DNA of 64,000 nt. It comes from Escherichia phage vB_EcoM_ESCO25. The stretch lies in the sequence record OM386656.1, one strand, 5' to 3'. Shown here one piece after another: positions 1 to 30,880 of this stretch. How positions within the stretch are numbered: position 1 is the first letter of the stretch; each line of letters opens with the position of its first letter. A model generated the notes under the pieces. It saw only the letters and a list, made by a program, of their open reading frames with translations, did not search any database and was not told the origin of the DNA. The position numbers were made by a program, and so were the translations under genes.

Positions 1-994
1 CTAACCACCAATCGCCATCCCTCTCTTCCAAATGACCATCATGTTTCTTAGCAAAATTGATCATATGGTTAGTTGGCTCTAAGTTCTTTTTAATTTGCAA
101 CTTAGGTGGAATAAAAGCCTTAAGATAGCCTTTTGTTGCTGGTTTAGGTGGCAAAATAGGCTCAACGAGTAAACGAAGACGCTCCATTTCTGCATCCAAA
201 AAAGCAAGGTTCTCTTCTGCTTGCTTCATGTTAAAAGCAAACCCACGGTGTTCCTGGCGTGTGATAATGTCTGCTACACGTTGTTCAAGTTCAAATGGAC
301 CTTCCCATTTATCATAATCACCCCATTCTTCCATGAGGTAATTATATACACTTGTGTTGGCTTTGTTATCATAGATACAGTAATAAAGCATATCCGCAGC
401 AAAAGTCTTAAATCGATCTTCTTCTGGAATCTCTTTACGGAAATCTATTTTTACATCCCCGCCTGCCTTTCGAGAAAGTGCTGCCAAGCTATGTCCTGAT
501 TTGCCCTCAATCTTTCGATCTGGGTTTAACACTTTACTCAAAATTAAGGAGTCAATAAGTTTTACCTTGCTTTTACCCCACGTGTTATATTTAACACTGT
601 AATCTAATCCATAAAACAGTTTTGTAGCCAACCAGTCATAGTTGATACCGTTGTGTGCCACAGCCATTTCAACCAAATATTCAGGCTTGTCTTTAAAATA
701 ACCTTCATGATTAATAAAATCTGGGAAATCTTTTAGTTGAAAATGTGTGTAATCTTGCGCCACATATTCTTTAAGAACATATGTATATTTATCATCTGAC
801 TCTTCATAAGGACGACCATCAAAAATGTATTTAGGGCCATCGTGGAAAGCTACTATTTCTCCTGTTTCATGGTTCTCTAAGACAATACAGTGCATTTGAA
901 ATGTGTCTTTGAGACGATAAGGACTAGCTAAATAATCAATAGTATCATTATTCAACAATCCATTTGCTTCAATATCCCATGTAAACTTACTCAC
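1..994 (-). CDS. DNA polymerase, family A (T7 gp5-like), N-terminal 3'-5' exonuclease part; partial, continues beyond window start
   Basis: Minus-strand translation from GTG at 994 (GGAGG upstream) gives VSKFTWDIEANGLL...FHDGPKYIFD...DSLILSKVLNPDRK...GHSLAALSRKAGG, which parallels the T7 DNA polymerase N-terminus (SDIEANALL, FHNGHKYD, DTLVLSRLIH, GSHALEAWG). Not on the ORF track because it runs off the edge. Confidence 0.8.
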   Translation of the reverse strand, partial: MSKFTWDIEANGLLNNDTIDYLASPYRLKDTFQMHCIVLENHETGEIVAFHDGPKYIFDGRPYEESDDKYTYVLKEYVAQDYTHFQLKDFPDFINHEGYFKDKPEYLVEMAVAHNGINYDWLATKLFYGLDYSVKYNTWGKSKVKLIDSLILSKVLNPDRKIEGKSGHSLAALSRKAGGDVKIDFRKEIPEEDRFKTFAADMLYYCIYDNKANTSVYNYLMEEWGDYDKWEGPFELEQRVADIITRQEHRGFAFNMKQAEENLAFLDAEMERLRLLVEPILPPKPATKGYLKAFIPPKLQIKKNLEPTNHMINFAKKHDGHLEERDGDWWL

Positions 995-1788
995 TATTCC
1001 TCCTTTCTAATGTTCTCCAGAACCCACTGAAGTTCTTTTAAACTTAAACTTCTTACTCCCGCAGTTTTACTAGCTTCAGTTTTAAGTAACGGGTAAGCCT
1101 CAATGATACGTGTTTTAAGATCAGAAGTCAAGGCTTTTAAAAAATAGGTAGATGCTTCAGATAAAGAATCTTCTTCTGTTAGCACTTTACCTGCGCTTGC
1201 TCCGGCTCTCCTAACAGCTATGTCGTAGTCTTTGCTGTTACCTAATACGAACAGTCGATTCTCTCCTAAAACAACGGGAGAACGCTTCTGGCTGCGTTTA
1301 ATCCATATTTGGAATACACAAGGAACATCCCAAGGTTCTCCATGAAGAATAAAAGATCCTTTGGGACACTCTTCTTCGTGAAGAAGATGCATATAAGGAT
1401 TTAGTTTGTGTGCAAAAAAGATTTTTTGAAATGTGCGAGGTAAGATAAAACAAATACCACCTTCGTTATCCAGCATTTCAGCACAATGGTTAAAGAACTT
1501 AATGGCAAGACTAGCGTTTTTTCCGAATGGAGGATTACCAACAAAAGCCGTTACACTACCAACAGACTCAACAGATTGAGCTAAAAAATCTGCCTCAATA
1601 CAATCTTCAAACTTAGGGTCAATATCAAAAGAAGTTATGTTTTTAAAACAAGAAGAGAAAGCTCCTTCTCCCGCAGATGGTTCTACGTAGTTAGCTTCCT
1701 CTCCAAAAATTTCTTTGATCTTATCACATAAGAACCCCGCATAAGCGGGGTTAGTGTAATATTGATCAAGTGTGTTCAACTTGCTCAA
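994..1788 (-). CDS. DNA amino-methyltransferase (N6-adenine or N4-cytosine type)
   Basis: 264 aa; motif X-like DQYYTNP, AdoMet motif I VEPSAGEGAF, catalytic motif IV NPPFG. Confidence 0.7.
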   Translation of the reverse strand: MSKLNTLDQYYTNPAYAGFLCDKIKEIFGEEANYVEPSAGEGAFSSCFKNITSFDIDPKFEDCIEADFLAQSVESVGSVTAFVGNPPFGKNASLAIKFFNHCAEMLDNEGGICFILPRTFQKIFFAHKLNPYMHLLHEEECPKGSFILHGEPWDVPCVFQIWIKRSQKRSPVVLGENRLFVLGNSKDYDIAVRRAGASAGKVLTEEDSLSEASTYFLKALTSDLKTRIIEAYPLLKTEASKTAGVRSLSLKELQWVLENIRKEE

Positions 1789-2321: not shown

Positions 2322-4100
2322 TTAGTAGTTGCTATCCGTAGGTAAGTTAGCAGGGTTGTTAAAATACTGCTCTTTGTCGTGAAGAGTTGCAGTTCTAATG
2401 TCATAGTAAAACTGCCCTGCTGGACCAGTCTCCGAGAACTCACGGTTTTTTAGGATAAAGCAATGAGTTGTATTACGTTCTACAGGATCTTCAGCAGCCT
2501 TATCTCGTTCCAAAGCCAAGGTAATACCAGCACCTTTAGCCAAGAAACTACTACCCATTGCATCGTCCTCTGTTAAGTGCTCATTGCCACCATTAGCTGA
2601 CTTCTTAACGTGTGAGATGACGATAATAGTTATAGCATACTCTTTCATGATTCGCTTCAACCATGTTGCTAACTCTTCCTGGGCTTGAACATCCATACCA
2701 GAAAGCAAATCAGAATAAGGGTCGATAACAAGAATTGTTACTCCAAAATAGATGATCATCTCCAAAACTTTTTCTTTGATAGACTCCACATCTGCTCCAC
2801 GATCATCACACACGTAAAAACGTGGTGATCCATCTTCTCTTTCGTAAAAATCTAGGATTTTTTCTTTATTCTCTTCCAAGATTTGAAATTTCTCTTCCGG
2901 TGTTTTCCTGTGTAGAGGAATGTGTAGGAAAGAGGATAACAGGTTACGAGAATACTTTTTATAAGTCGCTTCCAAGGACAGAATACCTAGGGTATGTTCT
3001 GGGTGTGCAACAATAATATGTTTGGTGATCTCGTTCACCATCAAAGTTTTACCGATACTGGTCTTTGCCAGGATGACTGTAATCTCTTCCTCTACTAAAC
3101 CACCACCCAACATGTTTGCAGCAACACGCATAAAAGGAGGCAAGGTAATCATCTTGGATTCCAAGCATTCCAATGCAGCTTCATACAAGACATTAGAAGC
3201 ATAAACACCTGCTGGGGTGTATAGACGAGCACTCCAAAAAGCTTTTACGAAATCTTTTGCACGGCCTTCTTCCAGATACTGATTGGCATCCTTAAGATCC
3301 ATCTGCATACGGTAGACTTTGTTACGAGGCAGCACCTTAACAATATTTTCAAATGCCTCGTTACCTGCTTTGTCGTTATCCATGCAAACAATAATCTTCT
3401 TAAATTTTTCAAAGAAAGGATATTGTGCCTGAACTTGTTTATACATACTGGTTTCACCAGTTGTGCCACTTACTACGGCTGGAAGCTCATATTTACTGTC
3501 CAAGTTTTCAGATAGCATTTGATAAGCTGCCAGAGCATCGTGTTCACCACCTGTAATTACAACAGTATGAGAACGATCTGCAAAACGAATTTGTCCAAAA
3601 AGATCTACATCTTTACCTACTTGACCAATAGGTTTACTGAAATCTTTAGGATGAATACGACGCTTAAAACCAACCAATTCTTTACCGATGGTAGTTGGAT
3701 ATAAACAACTTTCTACTACCATCTGATCCCCTTCCTGACGGTATTCATAACGAACACCATAGAAAGATGAAACTTTTTCTTTAATGCCTCGATAACCACG
3801 TGGGTTGGTTGATGTTTCTTGAACAATTTTACGATGAATCTGTTTATTAAATTCCGAACCCACAATCTCCTCCTCTTCTTCTAAAACTTCACCATTTTCT
3901 CGTAACCATTCTACGCTAGGAATAGTGTATTCACACGCAAAGCACTTAGCACCTTTATGCTCTCCATTAGAATCTAATCCATAAACCATCAGGTTATTAC
4001 GAGAGCGATCCTTGCCATTTTTCATGCAGCGCGGACAACCTGTATGTCCTTCCTTGCTAAGATCAACATCAAATCCATATTTAGTTATAATGTGCGACAC
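2322..4100 (-). CDS. bifunctional DNA primase-helicase (T7 gp4-like)
   Basis: 592 aa; N-terminal zinc ribbon CPRC...CFAC; TOPRIM-like VVITGGEHDALAAY and CMDNDKAGNEA; C-terminal helicase Walker A AKTSIGKT and Walker B-like VLVIDPYSD. Confidence 0.85.
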   Translation of the reverse strand: MSHIITKYGFDVDLSKEGHTGCPRCMKNGKDRSRNNLMVYGLDSNGEHKGAKCFACEYTIPSVEWLRENGEVLEEEEEIVGSEFNKQIHRKIVQETSTNPRGYRGIKEKVSSFYGVRYEYRQEGDQMVVESCLYPTTIGKELVGFKRRIHPKDFSKPIGQVGKDVDLFGQIRFADRSHTVVITGGEHDALAAYQMLSENLDSKYELPAVVSGTTGETSMYKQVQAQYPFFEKFKKIIVCMDNDKAGNEAFENIVKVLPRNKVYRMQMDLKDANQYLEEGRAKDFVKAFWSARLYTPAGVYASNVLYEAALECLESKMITLPPFMRVAANMLGGGLVEEEITVILAKTSIGKTLMVNEITKHIIVAHPEHTLGILSLEATYKKYSRNLLSSFLHIPLHRKTPEEKFQILEENKEKILDFYEREDGSPRFYVCDDRGADVESIKEKVLEMIIYFGVTILVIDPYSDLLSGMDVQAQEELATWLKRIMKEYAITIIVISHVKKSANGGNEHLTEDDAMGSSFLAKGAGITLALERDKAAEDPVERNTTHCFILKNREFSETGPAGQFYYDIRTATLHDKEQYFNNPANLPTDSNY

Positions 4101-4112
4101 TTTGTTCTCCTG

Positions 4113-4391
4113 TTAAAATGGTTCGTTAGTCTCCATCATATATTCTGCTTCTAGTTCTTCCATGTGCTTTCTAAATTGGAAAGCAATTTCTGCTACAGTT
4201 ACATTTAAATCTTTTTCAAAAACTTCTGTAGATCCTTCATAAAAACGAATACCGTCAATTAAAAGCCCTCCGTGGTAATCCCAATCGCTTTCACGAGAAA
4301 GTGGATTAGGTTCTTCATAATAGTAATCCACCTCCACGACCAAGGCTTTCCCGTTACGAGTGGTGTATTCAAAATCAAAAGTGTTAATCAT
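4113..4391 (-). CDS. hypothetical protein
   Basis: 92 aa ORF, co-oriented and abutting neighbours. Confidence 0.5.
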   Translation of the reverse strand: MINTFDFEYTTRNGKALVVEVDYYYEEPNPLSRESDWDYHGGLLIDGIRFYEGSTEVFEKDLNVTVAEIAFQFRKHMEELEAEYMMETNEPF

Positions 4392-5335
4392 TATAGCTCC
4401 TCAAATAAAAGTCTACGACGCTCATTCAACACATCAATGTGATAATGAGTCCTGACATACTTAGCTAATGCTAATCCTTTCTCCATGCAAACATCGGGAG
4501 CACTTAATAAGTATTCCGTAATATCTTTCCACTCGGAAGGTGTTTCAGCAAAGAATAACAAATCTTTAAACTCTTGTGTATGATAATTCTCACGAGGAGA
4601 GCAGATTAAAGGTAAACCCTTAGCACCTGCCTCAAGAATTTTAAGATTGCTTTTTGCATTATTAAACACGTTATCGATCAATGGTGCAAGACTGATTTGA
4701 TGACCATCGTAAGATTCCATGTAGTTGGCATATGGTCTTACACCTTCATAAACACAAGTTGGTGCTACATTTTCCCTGATTAAAGACCATTCACGACTAC
4801 TTAAAACTTCAGAATCCCTACGAAAACCACATATTGTAAGATCTTTACCAAAATCGGGCAAGATAGCCAAATCTTGTTTATGTGTTTCACTTCCAGCCCA
4901 GACTAATGGAGTTTTGGAGTAGCGATCACGGGTCAACACAAATTGACCTTCATCGTAAGGAAGTCCATTAGGGATTATGTGCACATTATCATTGTATTGT
5001 GAAAGTTCAACTTGCAAGGCAGGTGTCGTAGTTGTAACAAGATCACTGTGCTCTAAAAACCATTTTAAATGTTCACGAATACCTGATTCAAAAATACCTT
5101 CTAACATGTGTCCTTTTGGAATAACTAAAGAGTCATCCAAATCCATAACCATTTTAAAGCCCAGGTTTTTAAGGGCTAAAAAGCCCTCTTTACCTTTTGT
5201 TGGCACTCCGTTAAAAACGAAAACGTTGTGTTTAGGTTGTGAAGAGAACTGCCTTGAGTAAGGCAGCACTACCCTATGGAAATCGCAGACACTATAATTG
5301 ATTCCGTTACGATTGTCAAGAATTATTTGTCCCAT
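4391..5335 (-). CDS. glycosyltransferase (GT-B-like C-terminal motif)
   Basis: 314 aa; C-terminal NLKILEAGAKGLPLICS resembles the GT4 family E-x7-E/EAG motif; paralog of 5343..6291. Confidence 0.55.
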   Translation of the reverse strand: MGQIILDNRNGINYSVCDFHRVVLPYSRQFSSQPKHNVFVFNGVPTKGKEGFLALKNLGFKMVMDLDDSLVIPKGHMLEGIFESGIREHLKWFLEHSDLVTTTTPALQVELSQYNDNVHIIPNGLPYDEGQFVLTRDRYSKTPLVWAGSETHKQDLAILPDFGKDLTICGFRRDSEVLSSREWSLIRENVAPTCVYEGVRPYANYMESYDGHQISLAPLIDNVFNNAKSNLKILEAGAKGLPLICSPRENYHTQEFKDLLFFAETPSEWKDITEYLLSAPDVCMEKGLALAKYVRTHYHIDVLNERRRLLFEEL

Positions 5336-5342
5336 ACTTCAC

Positions 5343-6291
5343 CTACAAACTTTCAATAACCTGGCGTCGCAATTCGTTTGCATCTGCCAGATTATAATGT
5401 GTTCGAACATGTTCCGCTAAGAACAAGCCGCGATCTTCCCGATAGTTCGGATTTCGAAGAAGCTTAACAATTTCGTAATGCCATTCTGCTTTATTCTCTG
5501 CATAAGCAACAGCGCGAGCATCTACAGGGTTAAAATAAGGTAATACCTTAGAACAAACAATCGGAATACCTTTTGCCCCCAGCTTCAAGGATTTTGAGAT
5601 TACTTTTACAATTATTAAAATCATTATCTACCAAAGGAGCTATAGCAATAGCATGACTTTCGTAAACACTCATGTAATTATCTAAATCTTTTACAGCAGC
5701 TTTATATTTGGCATTTGGTAAATTTCTACGGATCTTAATCCACTCTTGCCCTGTGATACTCTGCGATGCTTCATATCCTGCAATAGTAAGAAGTTCATCA
5801 TCGAAAGTATTAGAGACTAGTCGTAAATCGGGTTCGTGACTAGCACCGCCAGCCCATACAACAGGGGTACCGGATGAACGATCATTTGACAAAGTGAATT
5901 GTCCGCTATCAAAAGGAAGTGCATTTCGGATCACAACAACATTCCTATTTAAGTGACGGATCTTATATGCCAAATATTCCGTAGTCACAATGACCACATC
6001 GGCAAGCTTAACCATAGCTACAATAGCATGAGTGTTTGACTCATATAAACTTGCTAAATAATGTTCTGGATTAAGTTGGTAGAAATCATCTAAATCTACA
6101 ACAATCTTAACACCTTGACGTTTCAGGGACAGAACATATTCTGCCCCTTTAGAATGAATACGGTTAAACACGACAACATCTTTCTTAGGCTGAAAATTAT
6201 TGTTGTTAAATGGTATAACAATACGATGATAATCACAACCACTGTGAGGTTTTGCATCAATTTTCAGTTTAGTCCATTTTTTATTTGACAT
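5343..6291 (-). pseudogene. glycosyltransferase paralog interrupted by a frameshift (two overlapping ORFs 5548..6330 and 5343..5624)
   Basis: N-part ends ...NLKILEAGGKRYSDCLF*; C-part in another frame reads KLGAKGIPIVCSKVLPYFNPVDARAVAYAE...HVRTHYNLADANELRRQVIESL, colinear with the C-terminus of paralog 4391..5335 (...AKYVRTHYHIDVLNERRRLLFEEL). Confidence 0.5.
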
Positions 6292-6964
6292 GTGCCAGTG
6301 CCTCCTCATAAGAAATTCGGATTTTCCCATTTTTAATATCTTCTAAAGACGCTTTATATTCTTCCCAGTTAATGCCAATAGCAGCTTCTTTCTCTTCTTT
6401 TGTCAGATTAGCAAAAGGCATAGGATTGTTTCCAAAAACATCGTCTGGGTGGATATAAGCCATGATACGAAGTGGACAAGGTATTGCCTGAATGCCCTGA
6501 TTCAAACCAGCAGCTTTCAAACGGTGTACCCATTCAGCATCTTCAAAACCATAGCCGTGAGTGTAAGGGCGGAAATAACCCATCTTCTCAACAACGGCAC
6601 GAGAATACATTGCAAATTGACACATTGCAAGTTCCCAGAGAATAACTTCTCCTTTACTCCCAACAACTTTATCTTTGAAATACTCCGGCATACCAAAGAA
6701 ATCCCATCCTCCAGAGACAGCTTGATCTACAAAATATGTTTCCCATCCCTCCATGATTGGGTAGCAATCGTCGTCAAAAATAAACCAATAATCATAACCT
6801 TCTTCATAAAACTGGTGCATAAGTTCATTCCTGGCGTAAGCTACACCTTTACGATCTGGATCGTTGAATACTCGAAAATCTGCATGTGGATCTGTTACAA
6901 GATAGTCTTTAAGTGGACGGACACCTACAGTGATAACACCCACTCCGATTTTAATATTTTCCAT
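6281..6964 (-). CDS. glycosyltransferase, GT-A fold (DDD motif)
   Basis: 227 aa; YWFIFDDDCYP acidic motif typical of GT-A nucleotide-sugar transferases. Confidence 0.5.
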   Translation of the reverse strand: MENIKIGVGVITVGVRPLKDYLVTDPHADFRVFNDPDRKGVAYARNELMHQFYEEGYDYWFIFDDDCYPIMEGWETYFVDQAVSGGWDFFGMPEYFKDKVVGSKGEVILWELAMCQFAMYSRAVVEKMGYFRPYTHGYGFEDAEWVHRLKAAGLNQGIQAIPCPLRIMAYIHPDDVFGNNPMPFANLTKEEKEAAIGINWEEYKASLEDIKNGKIRISYEEALAHVK

Positions 6965-6972
6965 TTTCTCTC

Positions 6973-7536
6973 CTAGATAGTTTTACTGTGATCGTGACAG
7001 TGTAATAAATGATGTATAGACCGTTGAGGATTTGTTTGACCTAATCTGTAAATGTGAAACAGATACATTCCCCGCATCAATCCTAACCTTTTTCCTTTTT
7101 CATGTAAAGTGCGAGAGAAAATTAGGTCGAATTGGATAGATTTTTCTTCGAAAGGAATTTCATTCCACAATGATTTTCTAAAAAGCAAAAAGAAACCTGC
7201 CAGAGGTGTTCCGAAAGGAACTTCTTCAACACTCACTTTATGATATTCTCTTGCAATCTTAGCATATTCTATATGGTTTAGAATATTTGGATCATCGTTA
7301 ATTTGGTTAGAGAAAAGCTGATAACCACTACCTAACCTGTTACAAGTTGCACCTATTACATCAAAAGGCGGGTTTGACATAATAAGCTCTTCAAGCATAG
7401 ATGGTTGATCAGGCAGGAGGAACATTGTATCGGTATCTCTTAAGCACACCCAACTATCATCTGGAAGAACGGCAATAGCTTCATTGATAGCCTTGCCGAT
7501 ATTTCCTGTCAGATAGGGAGTAATATAATAAATCAT
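6973..7536 (-). CDS. hypothetical protein, possible GT-A glycosyltransferase (DTD motif)
   Basis: 187 aa; VCLRDTDTMF DxD-like motif. Confidence 0.4.
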   Translation of the reverse strand: MIYYITPYLTGNIGKAINEAIAVLPDDSWVCLRDTDTMFLLPDQPSMLEELIMSNPPFDVIGATCNRLGSGYQLFSNQINDDPNILNHIEYAKIAREYHKVSVEEVPFGTPLAGFFLLFRKSLWNEIPFEEKSIQFDLIFSRTLHEKGKRLGLMRGMYLFHIYRLGQTNPQRSIHHLLHCHDHSKTI

Positions 7537-7552
7537 TCTCCCCTCCGTTATA

Positions 7553-7744
7553 TTAACTGTCAGCTACAATCCCACGTTTAATCATTTCTTGTTGGATTTG
7601 GATGACACGATCTCGTGCTTCCATATATTCTTTAAAAGATTCTTGGAGATGGTCACGAGCTACATCCCGTAGTTTAATCAGCTTGTCGTTTGTCACTTCT
7701 TGAAGAGAGATCTCGCCAGTTTCATTGGTCCCAAGCGTTTTCAT
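7553..7744 (-). CDS. hypothetical protein
   Basis: 63 aa ORF in operon. Confidence 0.45.
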   Translation of the reverse strand: MKTLGTNETGEISLQEVTNDKLIKLRDVARDHLQESFKEYMEARDRVIQIQQEMIKRGIVADS

Positions 7745-7952
7745 TTACAACCTCCTTAATAGCTACTGCACAGTTCTTACAAATACATTGACCTTTGTTC
7801 TTAGAAATTTCAATGTAAGGTTCATTTTCGTTTTCTCCGCGTCGTGAATCGTATATTACAGTATTGAAGCAGACAACGCAAATGTTTTTAATAACAACAT
7901 ATTTTTGCACTTTTTGTTTAGTGCGAAAATTTACTTCAATGACTTCTCCCAT
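7722..7952 (-). CDS. small Cys-rich protein (zinc-ribbon-like)
   Basis: Track ORF trimmed to internal ATG (MGEVIEV...) that overlaps the upstream stop as TGATG; CVVCFN...CICKNC Cys pairs. Confidence 0.45.
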   Translation of the reverse strand: MGEVIEVNFRTKQKVQKYVVIKNICVVCFNTVIYDSRRGENENEPYIEISKNKGQCICKNCAVAIKEVVNENAWDQ

Positions 7953-8236
7953 CAGTGAATCTCCCCTAAAATGTTGTTTTGAGACATTACTGCGGAGCAT
8001 TCTACAGCATCATGAGTCCTTGCAAAACGCTCCCACAGCACAGCATCTACTTTAAGAACCATACAAGGATAAATACTGTCGTTGATCATATCAATGCTAT
8101 ATTTATCTACATCCTTTTCATCTTCCATAAACAAAGTAGCGTATGCTTCCAAATGTTTACGGGTGTAGTATACGTCCTCTTCGGTAAGACCGACAACCAG
8201 GTAACTTGCTACAACAACAGTATTATCTTCTTGCAT
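7952..8236 (-). CDS. hypothetical protein
   Basis: Track ORF 7952..8299 trimmed to ATG at 8236 (MQEDNTVVV...) with RBS aaggggag. Confidence 0.5.
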   Translation of the reverse strand: MQEDNTVVVASYLVVGLTEEDVYYTRKHLEAYATLFMEDEKDVDKYSIDMINDSIYPCMVLKVDAVLWERFARTHDAVECSAVMSQNNILGEIH

Positions 8237-8237: not shown

Positions 8238-8759
8238 TTAACTCCCCTTTGGTAGATAGAAACCATGCACTTTATCTCGATAAACAAGACGCATATCACG
8301 CTCCCAGTGTGTCCTTATATTCCGTTTCTTGAAGTATAGAGCACCTTTAGTAACATCTAAAACAGACCGCAATTCAGGAAAATGTTTCTCTAAATAAAGT
8401 AAACGCTCCGCTATTGCTTTTGCTTCCTGCCACTTATCTTTCTCTGTCACGTTAAAAGTTTTCGCATATGAGAATTGCCCTTTCTGGAACAAGACTCCCT
8501 TGACTGTGTTAGGGAAGTAGGCATCATTTCTTCTGTTGATTACCACATTCCCAACGGCATTCATTCCTTTTTTACCCAGACCGCGACCTTCTGCGTAAAT
8601 TGCACAAGCTAATAGAATTTTATCATTATATTGCTTTGTACATTTGTGAACTACTTTAGCGGTTTTTACGTTTGCAGCTTCGGCTTTCGCCACAACAGGT
8701 GTAAATGTAAAAGCAGTTAAGGATAGTAACGCAACTGTTACAAAGTTTTTTATCAGCAA
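8238..8759 (-). CDS. SleB-like cell-wall hydrolase with signal peptide
   Basis: TTG start with GGAGG 6 nt upstream; N-terminal signal peptide LLSLTAFTFTPVVAKA; LACAIYAEGRG...AVGNVVINRR matches the hydrolase_2 (SleB) core. Confidence 0.6.
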   Translation of the reverse strand: MLIKNFVTVALLSLTAFTFTPVVAKAEAANVKTAKVVHKCTKQYNDKILLACAIYAEGRGLGKKGMNAVGNVVINRRNDAYFPNTVKGVLFQKGQFSYAKTFNVTEKDKWQEAKAIAERLLYLEKHFPELRSVLDVTKGALYFKKRNIRTHWERDMRLVYRDKVHGFYLPKGS

Positions 8760-8859: not shown

Positions 8860-9462
8860 TTATGGACATTCATACCATTCTTTTTTACCACCGAAGGCCA
8901 TCACCACATCGCAAATATCCAGACCAGCTTTACCTACACCATATGCTTTCAGCTTCCATTCTCCATCTTCACGAACCAGGGAAGCCACGTGGCAGATTGT
9001 GTTGCCAGCTACTTCAGGAGCCAGGAAGTCAAAATCCAGAATTTCCACATTGCGCTCGGAGTCGAAGATTTTAAGCATACCTTCAGAAGCATGACCAAAA
9101 CGTTTCAGACCTGTATCATCATCAATGGTCAGAACAAAGGCAATCTCTTGTGCATCAGGAGAGATTTTAGCCAGAGTAATATCAATCTGCTCCATGCTGC
9201 CAGTTCCATCACGAACATCGTCACCAGCGAAGGTAGAACGTTCAGGATCAAACTTGTTAGCATAGCAAACCAGATGACGTGCAGACAGCATTTCAGGATT
9301 GCCAGCGGCATTGTGACGACAAACCAGTGCACTTACATCCAGATCCAGTTTAGAATCAGATTTCCAAGAGAATTCCAGACGCAGTTCTTTCAGAGCCGGA
9401 GCAACTTTCTTCAGGGAAATTTTTTCGCTAGAACCTTTTTTCAGGGAAATTTTATCAGTCAT
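8860..9462 (-). CDS. terD: TerD-family stress protein
   Basis: 200 aa; N-terminal KISLKK repeats, then LDLDVSAL, GDDVRDGTG, EIAFVLTIDD and REDGEWKLKAYGVGKAGL matching the TerD/TerE/TerZ fold signature. Confidence 0.8.
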   Translation of the reverse strand: MTDKISLKKGSSEKISLKKVAPALKELRLEFSWKSDSKLDLDVSALVCRHNAAGNPEMLSARHLVCYANKFDPERSTFAGDDVRDGTGSMEQIDITLAKISPDAQEIAFVLTIDDDTGLKRFGHASEGMLKIFDSERNVEILDFDFLAPEVAGNTICHVASLVREDGEWKLKAYGVGKAGLDICDVVMAFGGKKEWYECP

Positions 9463-9477
9463 CTTTTGTCTCCTCTA

Positions 9478-9747
9478 TTATTTAAGTGTAATACCAGTTA
9501 CAGTCAATTCTACTTCCAAAAGCTTAGATGTGTTTTGGATTGATACTAATTGTGCATGATGGTTTAGTTCTACAGCAGAATAATCATTTTCCCCATCATC
9601 TACTTTTAAATAAACAATGATTTCACTAAGGTCTAAACCATTTTCGTCAAATGCATTTTCATAGACGAAAGTATCTCCTACATCCAAATCTTTAATGGTA
9701 AGGCATCGTTTATTTACTTTTTGCTCATCAATTTCGAAGTTTAACAC
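9478..9747 (-). CDS. hypothetical protein, paralog of 10769..11065
   Basis: 89 aa; shares DLDVGDTFVYENAFDENGLD and C-terminal LEVELTVTGITLK with 10769..11065 (DLGIGATFMYYDAYEDAGLD, VEVDLEVTNITLK). Confidence 0.55.
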   Translation of the reverse strand: MLNFEIDEQKVNKRCLTIKDLDVGDTFVYENAFDENGLDLSEIIVYLKVDDGENDYSAVELNHHAQLVSIQNTSKLLEVELTVTGITLK

Positions 9748-9976
9748 TTCTTCCTCCTAATGTTATCTCCGGTTTGTATATACGAAGAATTATAGCATTT
9801 TCATTTTCTTTGTCAACCCATTCTTCATAATCAGGCCATACATGAATCTCTACTCTACTTACAATATCTTCCATTCGCACAGTCCCAATGAAATACTCTT
9901 TGAGACTGCGCATAATGAAAGCTTCTCTCTCGCGCCAATAATTTTCTATGACTTGAGAGGCAAGCTCGTCGATCAT
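9728..9976 (-). CDS. hypothetical protein
   Basis: 82 aa ORF in operon. Confidence 0.5.
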   Translation of the reverse strand: MIDELASQVIENYWREREAFIMRSLKEYFIGTVRMEDIVSRVEIHVWPDYEEWVDKENENAIILRIYKPEITLGGRSVKLRN

Positions 9977-10767
9977 TTTTTAGCACCTACTTTAACAACC
10001 CACTCTCCGAACTCTTCAGATAAGAGTTTGTCATAAAGCTCTGAATCTGTCAAGTCTAAATCTTTAATGCCAATAAAACCAACATTATCATAAGCATTTG
10101 CCAGTTCTTTCAGGAAGCCAAACTTCTCATTACCAACGCCAACCATGAACCAATAAATAGGTTTATTCTTATTCTCTTCAATAAGACGACGAACAGCACT
10201 AGGATCACCATTCTCACCATCCGTCTGGAAGAATACAACACCAGGGGTAACGTCAGCACCTGGTTCAGACACAGCTACAACCTTTTCACGCTCTACAGAT
10301 ACTGTTTCAGTTTTACCAAGCAGACGATTAAAGAAGCCTTTCTTTGGAGCCTCCTCTTGTACCACTTGTTTAGTGGTAATATATTTGGTAACAGTGCCAA
10401 AATACTCATCGTAGATATCTGCCATTACAGGGGCGTAATTTGTTCCACCTCCGATACGAACATTGCGCATACATTTACCAACATAGTCATCGTAAACGTC
10501 TGCTGTTGCTGGAGTAAGCTCTTGGGAACTCGTATTGAAGGCCCACATATCAATTTGTTGATTATCGTCGAACAGCATACCAAAAGGAAGCAGTTTACCT
10601 ACAAAATCACTCACTACCCCACTAGAATATAGACCATGCATACTACCAGAAATATCTAGAGCACATGCTACACGAAGAACAATCTTACCTTCATTCAGGT
10701 TCTTATTCTTTTTCAGAGAGAAAGCAAGGTTTTCTTGACGTTTTTTCAGGCTGATTTTCTCGGACAT
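9973..10767 (-). CDS. von Willebrand factor A (vWA) domain protein, TerY-like, with TerD-like ISLKK N-terminus
   Basis: 264 aa; N-terminal KISLKK...FSLKK, then a MIDAS-type ACALDISGSM (DxSxS), GGGTNYAPVM and VVFFQTDGENG. Confidence 0.7.
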   Translation of the reverse strand: MSEKISLKKRQENLAFSLKKNKNLNEGKIVLRVACALDISGSMHGLYSSGVVSDFVGKLLPFGMLFDDNQQIDMWAFNTSSQELTPATADVYDDYVGKCMRNVRIGGGTNYAPVMADIYDEYFGTVTKYITTKQVVQEEAPKKGFFNRLLGKTETVSVEREKVVAVSEPGADVTPGVVFFQTDGENGDPSAVRRLIEENKNKPIYWFMVGVGNEKFGFLKELANAYDNVGFIGIKDLDLTDSELYDKLLSEEFGEWVVKVGAKK

Positions 10768-10768
10768 A

Positions 10769-11065
10769 TTATTTCTCCTTCTTAAGTGTAATATTGGTAA
10801 CTTCTAAATCTACTTCCACCATATTTGTATCTGGCGGGATGCAATGAGTATAGCCTCGTTGTGCTAGTGATCCATTAATACAGATCGCACTGTTTGTGGA
10901 ATTTTTAATGAACACCAAGTTACGGTAGGTATCCAACCCTGCGTCTTCATAGGCATCATAATACATGAATGTGGCCCCTATGCCAAGATCTTCGAAAGCA
11001 ATAGGTAAATCCTGACACTTTTCTTCTTGAATATTGAATCTAAACACGCATACCTCCTCTACCAA
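10769..11065 (-). CDS. hypothetical protein, paralog of 9478..9747
   Basis: 98 aa; see paralog motifs above. Confidence 0.5.
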   Translation of the reverse strand: MVEEVCVFRFNIQEEKCQDLPIAFEDLGIGATFMYYDAYEDAGLDTYRNLVFIKNSTNSAICINGSLAQRGYTHCIPPDTNMVEVDLEVTNITLKKEK

Positions 11066-11603
11066 TTTTGAAGCCCAAATCGTAAGCTTCTTTAGTGATC
11101 TTTTGCAACTCGCTTATAGGAAGTGTTACAAGAGGATCATCTTCTTCAATTTCCATCTTGTCATCTTCTGTTTCAATGAGAGTATTATGCACTTTATGAT
11201 AAGGGTTGTCAACACGTTTAAACTTATTCTTTTCTGTGCTGAAGAAACAATCTGGATCTTCTTCACCATCACCCCAACCTTGATTAGGATCTCTGTCAGA
11301 TTGTTCTGTAGGGATCTCACCTGTAAAGTACTCTTCCAGCACCATAGCGATGCCGTCCCTTGGATTTGAGGAATGCATCAAATCACAAACCTTACTCCAA
11401 TCCATAGCCCAGTCGAACCGTTCACGAACGCCATTTTCATCCTCTTTTCCAGAGAAAACACAACCATAACTATCATAGTTGCCATACATCTCTTCAATAA
11501 CAACACCGTCCTTCAAAAGAAAGAGGTAGCAAGGTGATCCGTCGAAAGAAGTAGAAAGGGCAGCTTTGCCCGATTCTTTGCACAAAAAGCTAAAACAACC
11601 CAT
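11040..11603 (-). CDS. hypothetical acidic protein
   Basis: 187 aa ORF; Asp/Glu-rich. Confidence 0.5.
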   Translation of the reverse strand: MGCFSFLCKESGKAALSTSFDGSPCYLFLLKDGVVIEEMYGNYDSYGCVFSGKEDENGVRERFDWAMDWSKVCDLMHSSNPRDGIAMVLEEYFTGEIPTEQSDRDPNQGWGDGEEDPDCFFSTEKNKFKRVDNPYHKVHNTLIETEDDKMEIEEDDPLVTLPISELQKITKEAYDLGFKIGRGGMRV

Positions 11604-11806
11604 TACAAACCCTCCTTCAGATTATCAAGAGCTACAGTGGTTTCACAAAATTCTCCATAAGCTTTATGATGTTCCAGAAAAGCTTCGGGTCCACCCCAAT
11701 CATTGTCTTGTGTATTCCAGCCATCAATAAAAGCATCTTCAATGATTGTGATCAGTTCTTGTCGGGTTAACTGGATAATATTAGGGTCGTTATCGTAGTT
11801 AAACAT
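11603..11806 (-). CDS. hypothetical protein
   Basis: 67 aa ORF. Confidence 0.45.
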   Translation of the reverse strand: MFNYDNDPNIIQLTRQELITIIEDAFIDGWNTQDNDWGGPEAFLEHHKAYGEFCETTVALDNLKEGL

Positions 11807-11972
11807 CCTCTTCCTCCTCTAAAATATGGAACCCGTAATTACAATAGTCCTGAAAGGTTTCGTGTGCAAGATCTTCTATATCCTCTTGAGACATATCATC
11901 TTCAATTTCGATATCCACAACCTCATTGCATCCACACCAAGCAGTTTCAATATTCACTCGTAATATTTTCAT
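11799..11972 (-). CDS. hypothetical small protein (57 aa), not on ORF track
   Basis: Manual translation MKILRVNIETAWCGCNEVVDIEIEDDMSQEDIEDLAHETFQDYCNYGFHILEEEDV; start overlaps the upstream stop as TAATG with a GAGGAGG RBS; fills an otherwise unexplained gap. Confidence 0.4.
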   Translation of the reverse strand: MKILRVNIETAWCGCNEVVDIEIEDDMSQEDIEDLAHETFQDYCNYGFHILEEEEDV

Positions 11973-12169
11973 TACTCCTCCTCCTCATTGAAGTCAATAT
12001 CTGCAAGGAGTTCGAATTTACGGAAGTTACGACAACCTTCATAAATATAACAATCACGACAAACTGCTAGAACACTTGGGGGATATATGCCTCCCATCGG
12101 CGCGAATCGTTTTTCGTCATCATAACGGACACCAATGTCCTCATCAATTATATAGATACGGATTCTCAT
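11972..12169 (-). CDS. hypothetical protein (Cys-containing)
   Basis: 65 aa ORF. Confidence 0.45.
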   Translation of the reverse strand: MRIRIYIIDEDIGVRYDDEKRFAPMGGIYPPSVLAVCRDCYIYEGCRNFRKFELLADIDFNEEEE

Positions 12170-13278
12170 TTACCAAGCCCTCGTTTCACAGCAGCTACCA
12201 TCCCGTCTTCCAAAGATTGAACTTCATTAATATAATCAACACGAGCAGCACGGGCTTCCGTATTGATGCGGTTAGTTTCTTCCAACATCTTAACCAAGTT
12301 TTCCTGATCGTGACGCAGAGTTTCAATATCCAACACTTGACGGTTAGCCAGTGCTGCTGCTTCGATCTGATTCTGTGTGGCAAGATCGCTACCCAGTTTA
12401 ATTGCCAGGTTAAATTCATCAAGAACGTTATTCTGCGTCTCTGCTGCTTTCATTTGACGTAAGCTCTCGATATACATTGAGAAGTTAGCAGAGTAAGCAG
12501 GAATAACATTATTTACTATGTTACGCGCAGATCGCATTAAGCTTGCAGAAACTTTTTGCATACCTTGTACACGCGGTCCCATTTGGACACACAGTAGGCG
12601 CAATGCTTTTAAATCTGCAATACGAATCTCCAGAAGATCCAAAGTATCTCGGATCACTTGTCGCTGTTCTACTGCATCTTCTGGAAGAGCAGCCAAAGCT
12701 TGTTCTTCTTTTTCATAGGTTGCTGTTAGAAGCTGCATATCTCGGTTCAAACTTGCAGCATATTGTCCAATAGCTTGATGTAGCTTTTCAAGATATACCA
12801 AGGAATCTTCTTCTTTGCGAATATCCATTTGAAGGTTTTTTACCAACTCTTCAATACGGTTATTAACATTATCAAACTCCCCAAACAGATCTTCTTTCAT
12901 ACCCATAACTTTTTTAATGAGTTTAGTAATACCCTTGCTTTGTTTAATAGAGTTTGGATCAAGTTGTTTTGCCTGTTTAATCAAAGCTGTGAGTCGTTCA
13001 CTCATCTGATCGCCTTGATTACTACGTTGATGTTTTAATACCTCGGCATTCAAGGAACGCAAGGTTGTTCCTGCCTCTGCCCCAATCTCTTCGATCTCCT
13101 GTCGGGTCATAGAAGGCAAAACTGGAACTTCTTGCGGTGCCGCTGGTGCATAAACAGGACTGGCATCTAACACGCTTGGAGCGAATACAGATTTACTTGC
13201 ATCTGTTGTTGCAGCAAATACGCTCATTTCAGGTTTCTTCTGACAGCCAGTAGCTGCTTTTAAAAATGGACTTGTCAT
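12166..13278 (-). CDS. TelA-like toxic-anion-resistance family protein
   Basis: 370 aa, predicted all-helical; N-terminal EIEEIGAEAGTTLRSLNAEVLKHQRSNQGDQMSERLTALIKQAKQLDP parallels the conserved TelA/KlaA N-terminal block. Confidence 0.6.
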   Translation of the reverse strand: MTSPFLKAATGCQKKPEMSVFAATTDASKSVFAPSVLDASPVYAPAAPQEVPVLPSMTRQEIEEIGAEAGTTLRSLNAEVLKHQRSNQGDQMSERLTALIKQAKQLDPNSIKQSKGITKLIKKVMGMKEDLFGEFDNVNNRIEELVKNLQMDIRKEEDSLVYLEKLHQAIGQYAASLNRDMQLLTATYEKEEQALAALPEDAVEQRQVIRDTLDLLEIRIADLKALRLLCVQMGPRVQGMQKVSASLMRSARNIVNNVIPAYSANFSMYIESLRQMKAAETQNNVLDEFNLAIKLGSDLATQNQIEAAALANRQVLDIETLRHDQENLVKMLEETNRINTEARAARVDYINEVQSLEDGMVAAVKRGLGK

Positions 13279-29921: not shown

Positions 29922-30241
29922 AAAACCTCCTTCTGGTTGGCTGCTTCAATCATAACGTTAAGAGTCTCCATACCGCTTTCAACTGCTTGAGCAATCTCTT
30001 GGAACACTGTTTTCTTAAAGATGTATAAAGATCCTGCCTGTAAGCGTTGCACACAGCATAAGAGGGTTTGGTGATCCATAACAAAGTCTCCATAAGCACA
30101 ATCAATTTTCCCTGTGATTGGGTTGTCTCGTGAGCGAGGATCGTATTCTAATGTGATATGCGTTACACCAGGTAAAGTAACAAACTGACAACGGATGTTG
30201 ACACGTGGTGCAATTGACACGCTAAACAAACTGTTTGACAT
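29918..30241 (-). CDS. hypothetical protein
   Basis: 107 aa ORF; RBS ggagg. Confidence 0.5.
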   Translation of the reverse strand: MSNSLFSVSIAPRVNIRCQFVTLPGVTHITLEYDPRSRDNPITGKIDCAYGDFVMDHQTLLCCVQRLQAGSLYIFKKTVFQEIAQAVESGMETLNVMIEAANQKEVL

Positions 30242-30819: not shown

Positions 30820-30849
30820 TTGTTTTCTCCTCTTGTTTTGTATGAGTTG

Positions 30850-30877: not shown

Positions 30878-30880
30878 TAC

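What the first reader, a model, noticed from the sequence alone, without database searches (positions are those of the whole stretch)
4391..7536. Cluster of three or four glycosyltransferase-like genes adjacent to the replication module
Two GT-B-like paralogs and two GT-A-like (DDD/DTD) proteins sit between the primase-helicase and the Ter module. In phages, glycosyltransferases next to replication genes often glycosylate modified DNA bases as an anti-restriction strategy; alternatively they may modify host surface polysaccharide. No base-hydroxymethylase was seen in this window, so the substrate is open.
Basis: inference. Interest (0 to 1): 0.5.

Follow-up and report, generated by a model that had tools for sequence, protein, structure and literature searches.

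The report
Phage four-gene glycosyltransferase cassette
The four sugar-transferase genes are real and already annotated in related E. coli phages, but the evidence argues against the suggested DNA sugar-coating and points, still unproven, to the phage decorating its own particle proteins (or a host surface sugar) with a rhamnose-containing glycan.

Summary
The window is a Phapecoctavirus (phAPEC8/ESCO5-like E. coli myovirus). Coordinates 4391-7536 (minus strand) hold four glycosyltransferase genes: GT-A2 (187 aa), GT-A1 (227 aa), and two GT4-like GT-B paralogs. GT-B2 is split here by one extra C in a C-run that none of 57 related GenBank records has. RefSeq relatives and phi92 (gp163-166) already annotate the cluster.

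Relatives also encode a full dTDP-L-rhamnose pathway outside this window, and its distribution among phages mirrors that of the cassette.

DNA base glycosylation, already speculated in the literature, is disfavoured:
- I found no ThyA-type hydroxymethylase or hydroxylase and no TET/JBP enzyme; the only thymidylate synthase is a widespread ThyX.
- HincII RFLP typing left only three phages uncut, apparently the three T-even-type phages, not the phapecoctaviruses.
- phi92-like phages with the same cassette and rml genes are reported as exceptionally sensitive to restriction-modification systems.
- The cassette also occurs in small lambdoid, P22-like and HK97-like phages.

In six HK97-like viral contigs the cassette sits between the major capsid gene and the head-tail connector gene. 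My best guess (about 0.4) is rhamnose-containing glycosylation of virion proteins. Rivals are host envelope glycan modification (about 0.25) and DNA (about 0.12). This is a known kind of module with an unresolved acceptor, of moderate interest.

The parts
6973..7536 (-). GT-A2: 187-aa GT2-like GT-A glycosyltransferase, first gene of the cassette in transcription order
   Evidence: ORF. phrog_14179 E=1e-112 and phrog_26101. The family alignment A2 has invariant D34, D36 and H161. A profile search found 980 relatives (representatives of 50%-identity clusters), many as the C-terminal domain of proteins of about 400 aa with a TOD1/MUCI70 domain. The homologous domain hits PF00535, PF13641 and PF13712 in distant members. 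No Pfam hit for the protein itself.
6281..6964 (-). GT-A1: 227-aa GT-A-fold glycosyltransferase with R45, D64-D66 and E141-D142 motifs
   Evidence: ORF. phrog_2456 E=3e-79. Weak, sub-threshold PF20691 TAGT hit (19.2 bits against 27.5), plus weak PF02709 and PF00535 hits. Alignment A1. AlphaFold pLDDT 87.2. Foldseek PDB matches: STIV A197, B4GALNT1, ppGalNAc-T, LH3/COLGALT1 and TarP. BFVD matches: phage GT2-like and giant-virus GTs. hhalign gives 98.4% probability against mycobacteriophage Boomer gp102.
5343..6291 (-). GT-B2: GT4-like GT-B paralog, interrupted in this sequence by a +1 frameshift. It reads as two ORFs, 5548-6330 (260 aa) and 5343-5624 (93 aa).
   Evidence: Both fragments match phrog_7162, at positions 1-233 and 226-308 of 309. 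ESCO5 has an intact 315-aa gene. The indel was located. The repaired translation is 100% identical to ESCO5.
5572..5576 (.). C5 homopolymer (G5 on the coding strand) carrying the extra base that breaks GT-B2
   Evidence: The run is C5 here and C4 in ESCO5. None of 57 related records shares the insertion. It is either a sequencing or assembly error or a very recent private mutation.
4391..5335 (-). GT-B1: 314-aa GT4-like GT-B glycosyltransferase, last gene of the cassette
   Evidence: PF13524 at 25.2 bits (cut-off 25) and a weak PF13439 hit. phrog_7162 E=3e-145. AlphaFold pLDDT 93.6. Foldseek top matches are PglA, GlgM, BshA, MshA, GtfC/Gtf3, SdgB, TarM, PimA and TreT; no T4 alpha- or beta-GT in the top 50.
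4113..4391 (-). Conserved 92-aa ORF of unknown function between GT-B1 and the primase-helicase; it may or may not belong to the module
   Evidence: phrog_4240 E=6e-33. A small ORF occupies the same position in ESCO5, phi92, KP2025, L018 and L019. It has no homolog next to the cassette in the Serratia prophage.

Best explanation
This is a conserved, mobile phage glycan-assembly cassette. The ancestral form is GT-A2, GT-A1 and one GT-B; here the GT-B gene is duplicated.

Proposed mechanism: the enzymes act one after another in the infected cell's cytoplasm. They build a short oligosaccharide on a non-DNA acceptor, most likely virion structural proteins such as the capsid. At least one step uses dTDP-L-rhamnose made by the phage's own RmlABCD enzymes, which are encoded elsewhere in the genome. 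The result would be a glycan coat on the particle, for stability or for shielding from antibodies and proteases, as in mycobacteriophages and giant viruses.

Shown here: the gene content and the folds; that the cassette is a unit across unrelated phages; that it co-occurs with rml genes; and that no DNA-hydroxylating enzymes were detected.

Inferred: the acceptor (virion protein), the order of the reactions, the use of rhamnose as donor, and the biological benefit.
For: 1. The cassette is a unit.
- The same three genes occur contiguously in a Serratia prophage, at 37-40% identity with hhalign E=3e-60 and 1e-47.
- Among 20 IMG/VR loci with GT-B at 32% identity or more, 17 have GT-A1 adjacent and 16 have GT-A2 adjacent.

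2. It is embedded in head-assembly modules of small phages.
- Six high-GC HK97-like contigs read TerL, portal, S78 protease, major capsid protein, then GT-A1, GT-B, GT-A2, then the gp6-like connector and the head completion protein.
- A P22/Sf6-like contig has GT-B and GT-A1 between TerL and the portal gene.
- Cellulophaga phage phi18:2 has a GT-A2-family GT plus a methyltransferase between the portal/minor capsid genes and the protease/MCP genes.

3. A donor pathway is available.
- ESCO5 encodes RmlA, B, C and D.
- RmlC's distribution among phages mirrors the cassette: Escherichia 105 records against 105-106, plus the same Klebsiella and 'Campylobacter' sets.
- ESCO37 lacks only rmlA and rmlB, the two steps for which E. 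coli has its own enzymes RffH and RffG (my own knowledge); the reported loss is limited to those two genes (PMC10269720).

4. Fold neighbours include protein-glycosylating enzymes. For GT-B1 these are Gtf3/GtfC and SdgB. For GT-A1 they are ppGalNAc-T, LH3/COLGALT1, STIV A197 and giant-virus GTs.

5. GT-A1 is homologous to a GT found in about 350 Mycobacterium phage records, mostly of the Che8/Boomer group. That group includes phages with demonstrated virion glycosylation (PMC12363180 and PMC11256854).

6. In the searches run, close relatives of GT-A1 and GT-B1 came almost only from phage or prophage contexts. This suggests a phage-specific acceptor.

7. The evidence against DNA is listed under the first rival.
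Against: - There is no direct evidence that any Stephanstirmvirinae virion protein is glycosylated, and none turned up in the literature searches.
- The ESCO5 capsid, decoration and tube proteins show no Ser/Thr-rich tail.
- GT-A1 is not detectably related to the Che8 GTs themselves, and the Boomer-type GT has no tested function.
- In the large myoviruses the cassette lies on the early/replication strand rather than with the structural genes.
- In lambdoid and Serratia prophages it sits at classic moron sites next to lysis genes, which fits lysogenic conversion equally well.
- Gene-neighbourhood arguments are weak for phages, and the head-module position could also suit a DNA-packaging-linked function.
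- Fold matches to PglA, PimA, TarM and TarP fit lipid- or polymer-linked acceptors just as well.
Confidence: 0.4

Rival explanations
1. DNA base glycosylation. The GTs would transfer rhamnose or other sugars onto hydroxylated or hydroxymethylated bases of phage DNA as an anti-restriction or anti-defence coat.
For: - In the large myoviruses the cassette lies next to the DNA polymerase and primase-helicase, and that synteny is conserved.
- The characterised cases met here of phages that encode their own NDP-sugar pathway serve DNA hypermodification: RB69/DLP3 arabinose and Pootjesviridae galactofuranose (PMC13326640).
- GT-A1 has a weak TAGT Pfam hit, a 40-residue match to the phrog_842 beta-glucosyl-HMC alpha-GT family, and the R...DDD...ED motif shared with DNA GT-A enzymes.
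- The idea has already been proposed (PMC7552041).
- One P22-like contig carries an Nmad5 gene about 5 kb away.
Against: - No enzyme that could make an acceptor base was found. There is no ThyA-family, TET/JBP or 2OG oxygenase or 5-HMU kinase in the ESCO5 annotation or in the Pfam scans of 92 ORFs.
- The ThyX homolog is common in phages that lack the cassette.
- In the ESCO collection only three phages resisted HincII, apparently the three T-even-type phages; the phapecoctaviruses were not among them.
- phi92-like phages with the cassette and rml genes belong to a group reported as exceptionally RM-sensitive in vivo.
- The cassette occurs in lambdoid, P22-like and HK97-like temperate-type phages that have no nucleotide-metabolism genes in the stretches seen.
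- The TAGT hit is below the gathering score and covers only the generic DxD region.
- GT-B1 resembles GT4 enzymes; T4 alpha- and beta-GT are not in the top 50.
- GT-A1, GT-A2 and GT-B1 are acidic, with pI 4.9-6.1.
Confidence: 0.12
2. Host envelope glycan remodelling. The soluble GTs would add rhamnose or other sugars, at the cytoplasmic face, to undecaprenyl-linked ECA or O-antigen units or to the LPS core. This would change the phage's own receptors, either as superinfection exclusion, to protect progeny from being trapped on debris, or as lysogenic conversion in the temperate carriers.
For: - In the temperate phages the cassette sits at moron hot-spots: between Q/HicAB and the holin in lambdoid contigs, and between the lysis cassette and terminase in the Serratia prophage. 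There is also a chromosomal copy in Rouxiella.
- GT-B1's closest folds include PglA, PimA and TarM.
- Stephanstirmvirinae use ECA and the LPS core as receptors (PMC8594841).
- Phage RmlC and RmlD would draw on the dTDP-4-keto-6-deoxyglucose pool that also feeds ECA synthesis (my inference from the known pathway).
- In this window the cassette is 0.7 kb from the endolysin gene.
Against: - Three to four GTs plus a private NDP-sugar pathway is a lot of machinery for a side-branch modification in a strictly lytic phage with a short cycle, and pre-existing surface glycans would stay unmodified (inference).
- There is no flippase, Gtr-type membrane component or convincing transmembrane segment; the maximum KD19 hydropathy is 1.65 or lower.
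- No close bacterial homologs turned up in polysaccharide loci.
- Placement between the capsid and connector genes in six HK97-like contigs is unusual for a conversion gene.
Confidence: 0.25
3. Glycosylation of a host or phage non-structural protein or of a small molecule. This would be toxin-like inactivation of a host factor or defence component, or modification of a metabolite linked to the neighbouring Ter/PRTase module.
For: - Small soluble GT-A enzymes and compact GT-B enzymes are the enzyme types used by bacterial effectors and by EarP-type rhamnosyltransferases (my own knowledge).
- The cassette neighbours the Ter, PRTase and HAD genes in the large myoviruses.
- BshA, MshA, GlgM and TreT, which act on small-molecule acceptors, are among the top fold matches for GT-B1.
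Against: - The Ter genes are absent next to the cassette in the small phages.
- A conserved set of two to four sequential GTs points to building an oligosaccharide rather than making a single inactivating transfer.
- No specific target can be named.
Confidence: 0.1

Closest known systems
phi92 gp163-166 and the RefSeq 'glycosyltransferase x4' annotation of Phapecoctavirus genomes (ESCO5 HOR27_gp211-214)
   Same: Orthologous genes in the same order and position, 66-100% identical. They were already recognised as two GT-B and two GT-A-like proteins by fold recognition.
   Different: No function or acceptor has been shown for them. In this window GT-B2 carries a private frameshift.
Mycobacteriophage virion glycosylation systems (Che8, Corndog, Myrna; Freeman et al. 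2023, as cited in PMC12363180 and PMC11256854)
   Same: Phage-encoded sets of several GTs, outside any host polysaccharide locus, that decorate capsid and tail-tube proteins. GT-A1 is a true homolog of a GT found in about 350 Mycobacterium phage records, mostly of that group (Boomer gp102 type).
   Different: There is no significant similarity to Che8 gp108-110 themselves. The hosts are Gram-negative. The phage brings its own dTDP-rhamnose pathway. Glycosylated virion proteins have not been shown.
Giant-virus glycosylation machinery (Mimivirus fibril glycans, chlorovirus PBCV-1 capsid glycans; review PMC9614988)
   Same: The virus encodes both nucleotide-sugar synthesis (including rhamnose) and several GT-A and GT-B enzymes to glycosylate its own particle. 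Giant-virus GTs are among GT-A1's best viral fold matches.
   Different: The viruses and hosts are unrelated and similarity is only at fold level. The giant-virus pathway uses UDP-rhamnose rather than dTDP-rhamnose (my own knowledge).
Phage DNA glycosyltransferases: T4 alpha-/beta-GT, T2/T6 beta-glucosyl-HMC alpha-GT, RB69/DLP3 arabinosyltransferases, TET-associated GTs (TAGT/JGT-like)
   Same: Leloir GT-A and GT-B enzymes encoded near replication genes. Some of these phages encode their own NDP-sugar pathways. The generic R...DDD...ED GT-A motif is shared.
   Different: No partner enzyme making hmC, hoC or hmU is present. The TAGT hit is below threshold. T4 GTs are not among the fold matches. 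DNA of relatives is cut by restriction enzymes in vitro and in vivo.
Prophage-encoded surface-glycan modifiers (S. aureus TarP; GtrABC serotype-conversion modules)
   Same: Phage-borne GTs at moron positions. TarP is a fold match for GT-A1.
   Different: There are no GtrA/GtrB/GtrC-type membrane proteins. The cassette has three to four soluble GTs, also occurs in strictly lytic phages, and sits inside head modules in some phages.

Membership tests
GT-B fold, GT4-like glycosyltransferases (GT-B1, GT-B2) | Two Rossmann-like domains, with closest structural relatives among GT4 enzymes | tested here: met
   AlphaFold pLDDT 93.6. Foldseek E=2e-9 to 1e-7 against PglA, GlgM, BshA, MshA, GtfC/Gtf3, SdgB, TarM, PimA and TreT. 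GT-B2 was assigned through its 41% identity to GT-B1.
GT-B fold, GT4-like glycosyltransferases (GT-B1, GT-B2) | Pfam Glycos_transf_1-type C-terminal domain above the gathering score | tested here: inconclusive
   PF13524 scores 25.2 bits against a cut-off of 25 for GT-B1. PF13692 and PF13439 are below cut-off. The GT-B2 fragments have no Pfam hit. More distant homologs carry PF00534 and PF13692.
GT-B fold, GT4-like glycosyltransferases (GT-B1, GT-B2) | EX7E catalytic or donor-binding motif | tested here: inconclusive
   Only one nearly invariant Glu (E235, in KILEAG) is present. The position eight residues upstream is not Glu (and the sequence).
GT-A fold, GT2-like glycosyltransferases (GT-A1, GT-A2) | GT-A Rossmann-like fold with a DxD metal/nucleotide-sugar motif | tested here: met
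   GT-A1: AlphaFold pLDDT 87, GT-A matches in PDB and BFVD, and invariant D64-D66. GT-A2: invariant D34xD36, and GT2 Pfam hits on the homologous domain of distant family members; no structure was predicted.
T4-type DNA glucosyltransferases (alpha-GT GT72, beta-GT GT63) | Sequence or fold membership in those families | tested here: not met
   No T4 alpha- or beta-GT family appears among the Pfam hits at E<=0.1. Neither enzyme is among the top 50 PDB fold matches of GT-B1.
TET/JBP- or ThyA-associated DNA GT-A enzymes (Pfam TAGT PF20691, JGT-like) | Profile match above the gathering score | tested here: not met
   19.2 bits against a 27.5 cut-off, covering residues 33-68 only. The precomputed hit is marked 'weak' in the phi92-like ortholog.
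TET/JBP- or ThyA-associated DNA GT-A enzymes (Pfam TAGT PF20691, JGT-like) | The genome encodes an enzyme that makes the hydroxylated acceptor base (ThyA-like hydroxymethylase or hydroxylase, or a 5mYOX/TET) | tested here: not met
   None was found in the ESCO5 annotation or in the Pfam scans of 92 ORFs. The thymidylate synthase is ThyX type and is widespread in phages without the cassette.
TET/JBP- or ThyA-associated DNA GT-A enzymes (Pfam TAGT PF20691, JGT-like) | Virion DNA carries glycosylated bases and resists restriction | not testable with these tools
   Only indirect literature evidence is available: HincII cutting of the phapecoctaviruses in the ESCO collection, and RM sensitivity of phi92-like phages. 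No nucleoside MS data were found.
Phage virion-glycosylation systems (mycobacteriophage Che8 type) | Homology to GTs shown to glycosylate capsid or tail-tube proteins | tested here: not met
   Comparison with Che8 gp108, gp109 and gp110 gave BLASTP E=0.004, 0.39 and 2.6, and hhalign probability 0.5% for gp108. The homology is to the untested Boomer gp102 type instead.
Phage virion-glycosylation systems (mycobacteriophage Che8 type) | Glycan adducts on virion structural proteins that depend on the phage GTs | not testable with these tools
   This needs glycoprotein staining or mass spectrometry of virions. The only contextual support is the cassette's position between MCP and connector in six HK97-like contigs.
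GtrABC-type O-antigen conversion modules | Membrane proteins GtrA (flippase), GtrB (bactoprenol GT) and GtrC | tested here: not met
   No such Pfam families were found, and the four GTs have no convincing transmembrane segment (maximum KD19 0.76-1.65).

The most novel reading that the evidence does not exclude
Coliphages of the phi92/phAPEC8 group, and a scattered set of small enterobacterial and high-GC proteobacterial phages, coat their own capsid or tail proteins with a rhamnose-containing glycan. The glycan would be built by this three- to four-enzyme cassette. That would be the first virion glycosylation system in phages of Gram-negative bacteria, and it would bear directly on antibody and protease shielding of therapeutic phages.
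Probability: 0.3. Interest if true: 0.7.

Novelty: new member of a known kind. Interest (0 to 1): 0.4.

Why it matters
Phapecoctavirus and Justusliebigvirus phages have very broad host ranges and are being used in therapy and biocontrol cocktails. Papers on them repeat, without data, that they carry a 'rhamnose DNA modification'.

Showing that this is unlikely corrects that assumption. The same enzymes may instead glycosylate the particle or a host surface glycan. If so, that bears on how these phages interact with antibodies, proteases, mucus and their own receptors.

The cassette also turns out to be a mobile unit shared with small temperate-type phages, in some of them right after the capsid gene. 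Those phages offer simpler genetic systems for identifying the acceptor.

Tried and rejected
- Profile searches of the GT-A1 and GT-A2 families against PDB sequences gave only chance hits.
- hhalign of GT-A1 against GT-A2 showed no detectable relationship.
- NCBIfam had nothing for any of the four GTs.
- Exact-pattern scans of IMG/VR for the C4 and C5 versions of the frameshift site found nothing. A BLAST of 81 nt against GenBank phages replaced them.
- The genome-contig scan with the GT-A1 alignment found only the phage itself in a MAG. The pattern method is too strict for distant homologs.
- The afdb50 fold library was unavailable, so JGT-like proteins could not be ranked against GT-A1.
- I looked for Ser/Thr-rich C-terminal tails on the ESCO5 capsid, decoration, tube and sheath proteins as possible O-glycosylation sites and found none.
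- I tested whether the small ORFs flanking the cassette are shared between this phage and the Serratia prophage. They are not.
- I considered that the ThyX homolog with its adjacent NT5C nucleotidase might be a novel hydroxymethylase linked to the cassette. I rejected this because ThyX occurs in more than 1000 phage records without the cassette.
- I considered a programmed frameshift in GT-B2. I rejected it because no relative has the extra base and the relatives encode an intact protein.
- The Freeman 2023 and Schwarzer 2012 papers were not held in the library.
- The GS linkers in my concatenated Pfam queries produced artefactual 'Serglycin' hits, which I ignored.

Full report
**Identity of the window.** The 4-kb stretch around the finding is 99.9% identical to Escherichia phage AV125 and 99.6% to ESCO5. 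Seventy related records match it, almost all of them Phapecoctavirus (Stephanstirmvirinae; phAPEC8-like myoviruses of about 150 kb). The window corresponds to ESCO5 coordinates 103,011 through 149,268 and on to about 13,038. All genes in the first 30 kb or so are on the minus strand.

**The observation.** In transcription order they are:
- GT-A2 (6973-7536, 187 aa)
- GT-A1 (6281-6964, 227 aa)
- GT-B2 (5343-6291)
- GT-B1 (4391-5335, 314 aa)

PHROG profiles name all four as glycosyltransferases with E-values from 1e-35 to 1e-145. Pfam is weak. GT-B1 just reaches PF13524. GT-A1 has only sub-threshold hits to TAGT, Glyco_transf_7C and GT2. GT-A2 has none.

I therefore checked the folds.
- The AlphaFold model of GT-B1 (pLDDT 93.6) is a GT-B enzyme. 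Its best PDB matches are GT4-type enzymes: PglA, GlgM, BshA, MshA, GtfC/Gtf3, SdgB, TarM, PimA and TreT. T4 alpha- and beta-glucosyltransferase are not in the top 50.
- The GT-A1 model (pLDDT 87) has a GT-A fold. It matches STIV A197, B4GALNT1, polypeptide GalNAc-transferases, the collagen GT domains of LH3 and COLGALT1, and TarP. Among viral models it matches phage GT2-like and giant-virus GTs.
- GT-A2 belongs to a large family: 980 relatives (representatives of 50%-identity clusters). Its distant members hit GT2 Pfam models over the homologous domain. The domain is often fused to a TOD1/MUCI70 GT-like domain and sometimes to a methyltransferase.

The family alignments show invariant FIFDDD and YG.ED in GT-A1, and D34xD36 in GT-A2. 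RefSeq relatives already annotate four glycosyltransferases here, and phi92 gp163-166 carry fold-based notes.

**The 'three or four' ambiguity.** GT-B2 is split into a 260-aa and a 93-aa ORF by one extra C in the C-run at 5572-5576. All 57 related GenBank records align this 81-nt stretch onto 80 nt, so none shares the insertion. Removing one C gives a 315-aa protein identical to ESCO5's. This is a sequencing or assembly error in a homopolymer, or a very recent private mutation. It is not a programmed frameshift. GT-B1 and GT-B2 are 41% identical paralogs.

ESCO5 encodes a complete dTDP-L-rhamnose pathway at 30.5-33.8 kb, outside this window: RmlB, RmlA, RmlC and RmlD, each with strong Pfam hits.
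- The distribution of RmlC among GenBank phages mirrors that of the cassette. Escherichia has 105 records against 105-106, and the same Klebsiella, 'Campylobacter', Phapecoctavirus and Justusliebigvirus sets appear.
- One natural phapecoctavirus, ESCO37, lacks only rmlA and rmlB (PMC10269720). E. coli has its own enzymes for those two steps, RffH and RffG (my own knowledge).

Rhamnose is therefore a likely donor for at least one of the GTs. This is an inference.

**Is it DNA glycosylation?** The idea is already in print as speculation (Olsen et al. 2020, PMC7552041; repeated in PMC10844046). Several results argue against it.
1. No enzyme that makes an acceptor base was found. ESCO5's 'thymidylate synthase' is a ThyX/Thy1 protein (PF02511; TIGR02170 below cut-off) with no match to any PDB ThyA. 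The same protein occurs in 1034 phage records, including rV5, ICP1, PAK_P1-like and N4-like phages without the cassette. A Pfam scan of 92 non-structural ESCO5 ORFs of at least 110 aa found no TET/JBP, 2OG oxygenase, ThyA or hydroxymethyl-pyrimidine kinase.
2. In the study that typed the ESCO phages by HincII RFLP, only three phages (ESCO10, ESCO47, ESCO58) were not cut. The paper describes three Tevenvirinae, two of them named as ESCO47 and ESCO58. The five phapecoctaviruses and three Justusliebigviruses were not among the uncut phages.
3. BASEL phi92-like phages carry the orthologous cassette (about 76% identity for GT-B1) and rml genes. That group is reported as 'exceptionally susceptible' to RM systems 'despite ... 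a putative dTDP glycosylation machinery' (PMC8594841).
4. GT-A1's TAGT hit is below the gathering score and covers only the generic region around the DxD motif. The R...DDD...ED motif that Burke et al. describe for DNA GT-A enzymes is also shared with TarP, so it does not discriminate.
5. GT-A1, GT-A2 and GT-B1 are acidic, with pI 4.9-6.1.

**The cassette is a mobile unit.** Its link to replication genes is lineage-specific.
- A Serratia sp. M24T3 prophage carries GT-A2, GT-A1 and GT-B contiguously in the same order, at 37-40% identity. They lie between the lysis cassette and HNH/terminase.
- Lambdoid contigs (O, P, Nin, Q) carry GT-A1 and GT-B between Q/HicAB and the holin-lysozyme genes. The same protein cluster has a chromosomal copy in Rouxiella badensis.
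- A P22/Sf6-like contig has GT-B and GT-A1 between TerL and the portal gene.
- IMG/VR holds at least 555 contigs with GT-B relatives. Among the 20 fetched loci with 32% identity or more, 17 have GT-A1 adjacent and 16 have GT-A2 adjacent. More distant GT-B relatives stand alone.
- Distant large myoviruses (KP2025, L018, L019) keep the order GT-A2, (GT-A1), a single GT-B, a small ORF, then primase-helicase. The GT-B duplication is therefore specific to Stephanstirmvirinae.

The most telling context comes from six high-GC HK97-like viral contigs. They read TerL, portal, S78 prohead protease, major capsid protein, then GT-A1, GT-B, GT-A2, then the gp6-like head-tail connector and the head completion protein (Pfam; phmmer). 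In Cellulophaga phage phi18:2, a 407-aa GT of the GT-A2 family and a Methyltransf_24 gene lie between the portal/minor capsid genes and the protease/MCP genes.

**Mechanism I commit to (confidence about 0.4).** The enzymes act in sequence in the cytoplasm to build a short, rhamnose-containing oligosaccharide on virion structural proteins.

Shown:
- the folds
- the cassette as a unit
- co-occurrence with rml genes
- head-module placement in several small phages
- homology of GT-A1 to a GT of the Che8/Boomer group of mycobacteriophages (hhalign 98.4% against Boomer gp102). That group includes phages with demonstrated capsid and tail-tube glycosylation.

Inferred: the acceptor, the donor and the benefit.

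Weak points:
- No glycosylated Stephanstirmvirinae protein is known.
- There is no similarity to the Che8 GTs themselves.
- The ESCO5 head and tail proteins have no Ser/Thr-rich tails.
- The moron-like positions in temperate phages fit host-glycan conversion equally well.

**Rivals.**
- Host envelope glycan remodelling (ECA, LPS, O-antigen), about 0.25. It is supported by the moron positions, by the PglA/PimA/TarM/TarP-like folds, and by the use of ECA and LPS core as receptors. Against it: the number of GTs, the lytic lifestyle, the absence of membrane components, and the placement between capsid and connector genes.
- DNA glycosylation, about 0.12. It would need an unrecognised route to an acceptor base and a modification that does not block HincII or the BASEL RM systems.
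- Glycosylation of another protein or a small molecule, about 0.1.

**Comparison with what is known, and novelty.** The genes themselves are known and annotated, and the DNA-rhamnosylation idea is published speculation. What this analysis adds:
- the negative evidence on DNA
- recognition of a three-gene mobile cassette
- its embedding in head modules elsewhere
- the private frameshift in this window

I file it as a new member of a known kind (phage-encoded glycosylation modules) with an unresolved acceptor, at interest 0.4. If virion glycosylation were confirmed, it would be the first such system in phages of Gram-negative bacteria, and in a group used for therapy.

Noticed in passing
window 5572-5576: A private +1 insertion in a C5 homopolymer breaks GT-B2. 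None of 57 related GenBank records has it. It is probably a sequencing or assembly error, or else a natural GT-B2 knockout isolate.
   Followed up: yes
window 8860-13865 (minus strand) and ESCO5 118.5-122.4 kb (L004:1497-5357): A tellurite-resistance-type module lies next to the cassette: TerD (8860-9462), vWA-TerF-like (9973-10767), TelA (12166-13278) and SprT-like (13275-13865). Further on are TerC, a ComF-like PRTase_3, a HAD hydrolase and a Macro-like protein. Its function in a lytic phage is unexplained.
   Followed up: partly
window 8238-8759 (minus strand): A SleB-type cell-wall hydrolase (endolysin) sits in the early/replication-strand gene block, 0.7 kb upstream of the GT cassette. 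The cassette is also within about 1.5 kb of the lysis genes in the Serratia prophage and in the lambdoid contigs, although the intervening small ORFs are not homologous.
   Followed up: partly
window 4000-8000 versus GenBank records: Records named 'Campylobacter phage B15/A150/A110a/C3', 'Acinetobacter phage vB_AbaM_ABPW7', 'Klebsiella phage ZCKP1' and a 'Pseudomonas' record are about 98-99.5% identical to E. coli phapecoctaviruses or are clearly Justusliebigvirus. The host labels look doubtful.
   Followed up: no
window 9789-9816 (minus strand): A perfect sigma-70 consensus promoter (TTGACA, 16 nt, TG-extended TATAAT) lies upstream of the TerD, endolysin and GT gene run. No terminator-like site was found on the minus strand between 4 and 9 kb, so the GTs may be part of one long transcription unit.
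   Followed up: no
window 994-1788 (minus strand): A 264-aa protein with an NPPF motif and a weak Eco57I-methylase hit lies between the DNA polymerase I gene and the primase-helicase gene. ESCO5 annotates it as an N6-adenine DNA methyltransferase.
   Followed up: no
ESCO5 39755-41371 (L002), outside the window: A long (332 aa), divergent ThyX-type thymidylate synthase sits next to an NT5C-type deoxyribonucleotidase. This ThyX type is widespread (1034 phage records).
   Followed up: partly
ESCO5 17.5-18.3 kb, 119.8 kb and 137.6-139.9 kb (L002, L004): A set of ADP-ribose/NAD-related genes is present: SIR2, a weak Macro domain, NADAR and a CapR-domain protein. DUF4326 and cREC_REC proteins are also present. 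These could be anti-defence or RNA-repair functions.
   Followed up: no
L022-L024 (IMG/VR contigs, about 75% identical GT-B1): Some Justusliebigvirus-like contigs have GT-A2 followed directly by the two GT-B genes, with no GT-A1. GT-A1 is therefore dispensable in nature.
   Followed up: partly
window about 30,000-31,000: The GC skew changes sign, which marks the switch from minus-strand to plus-strand transcription blocks.
   Followed up: no
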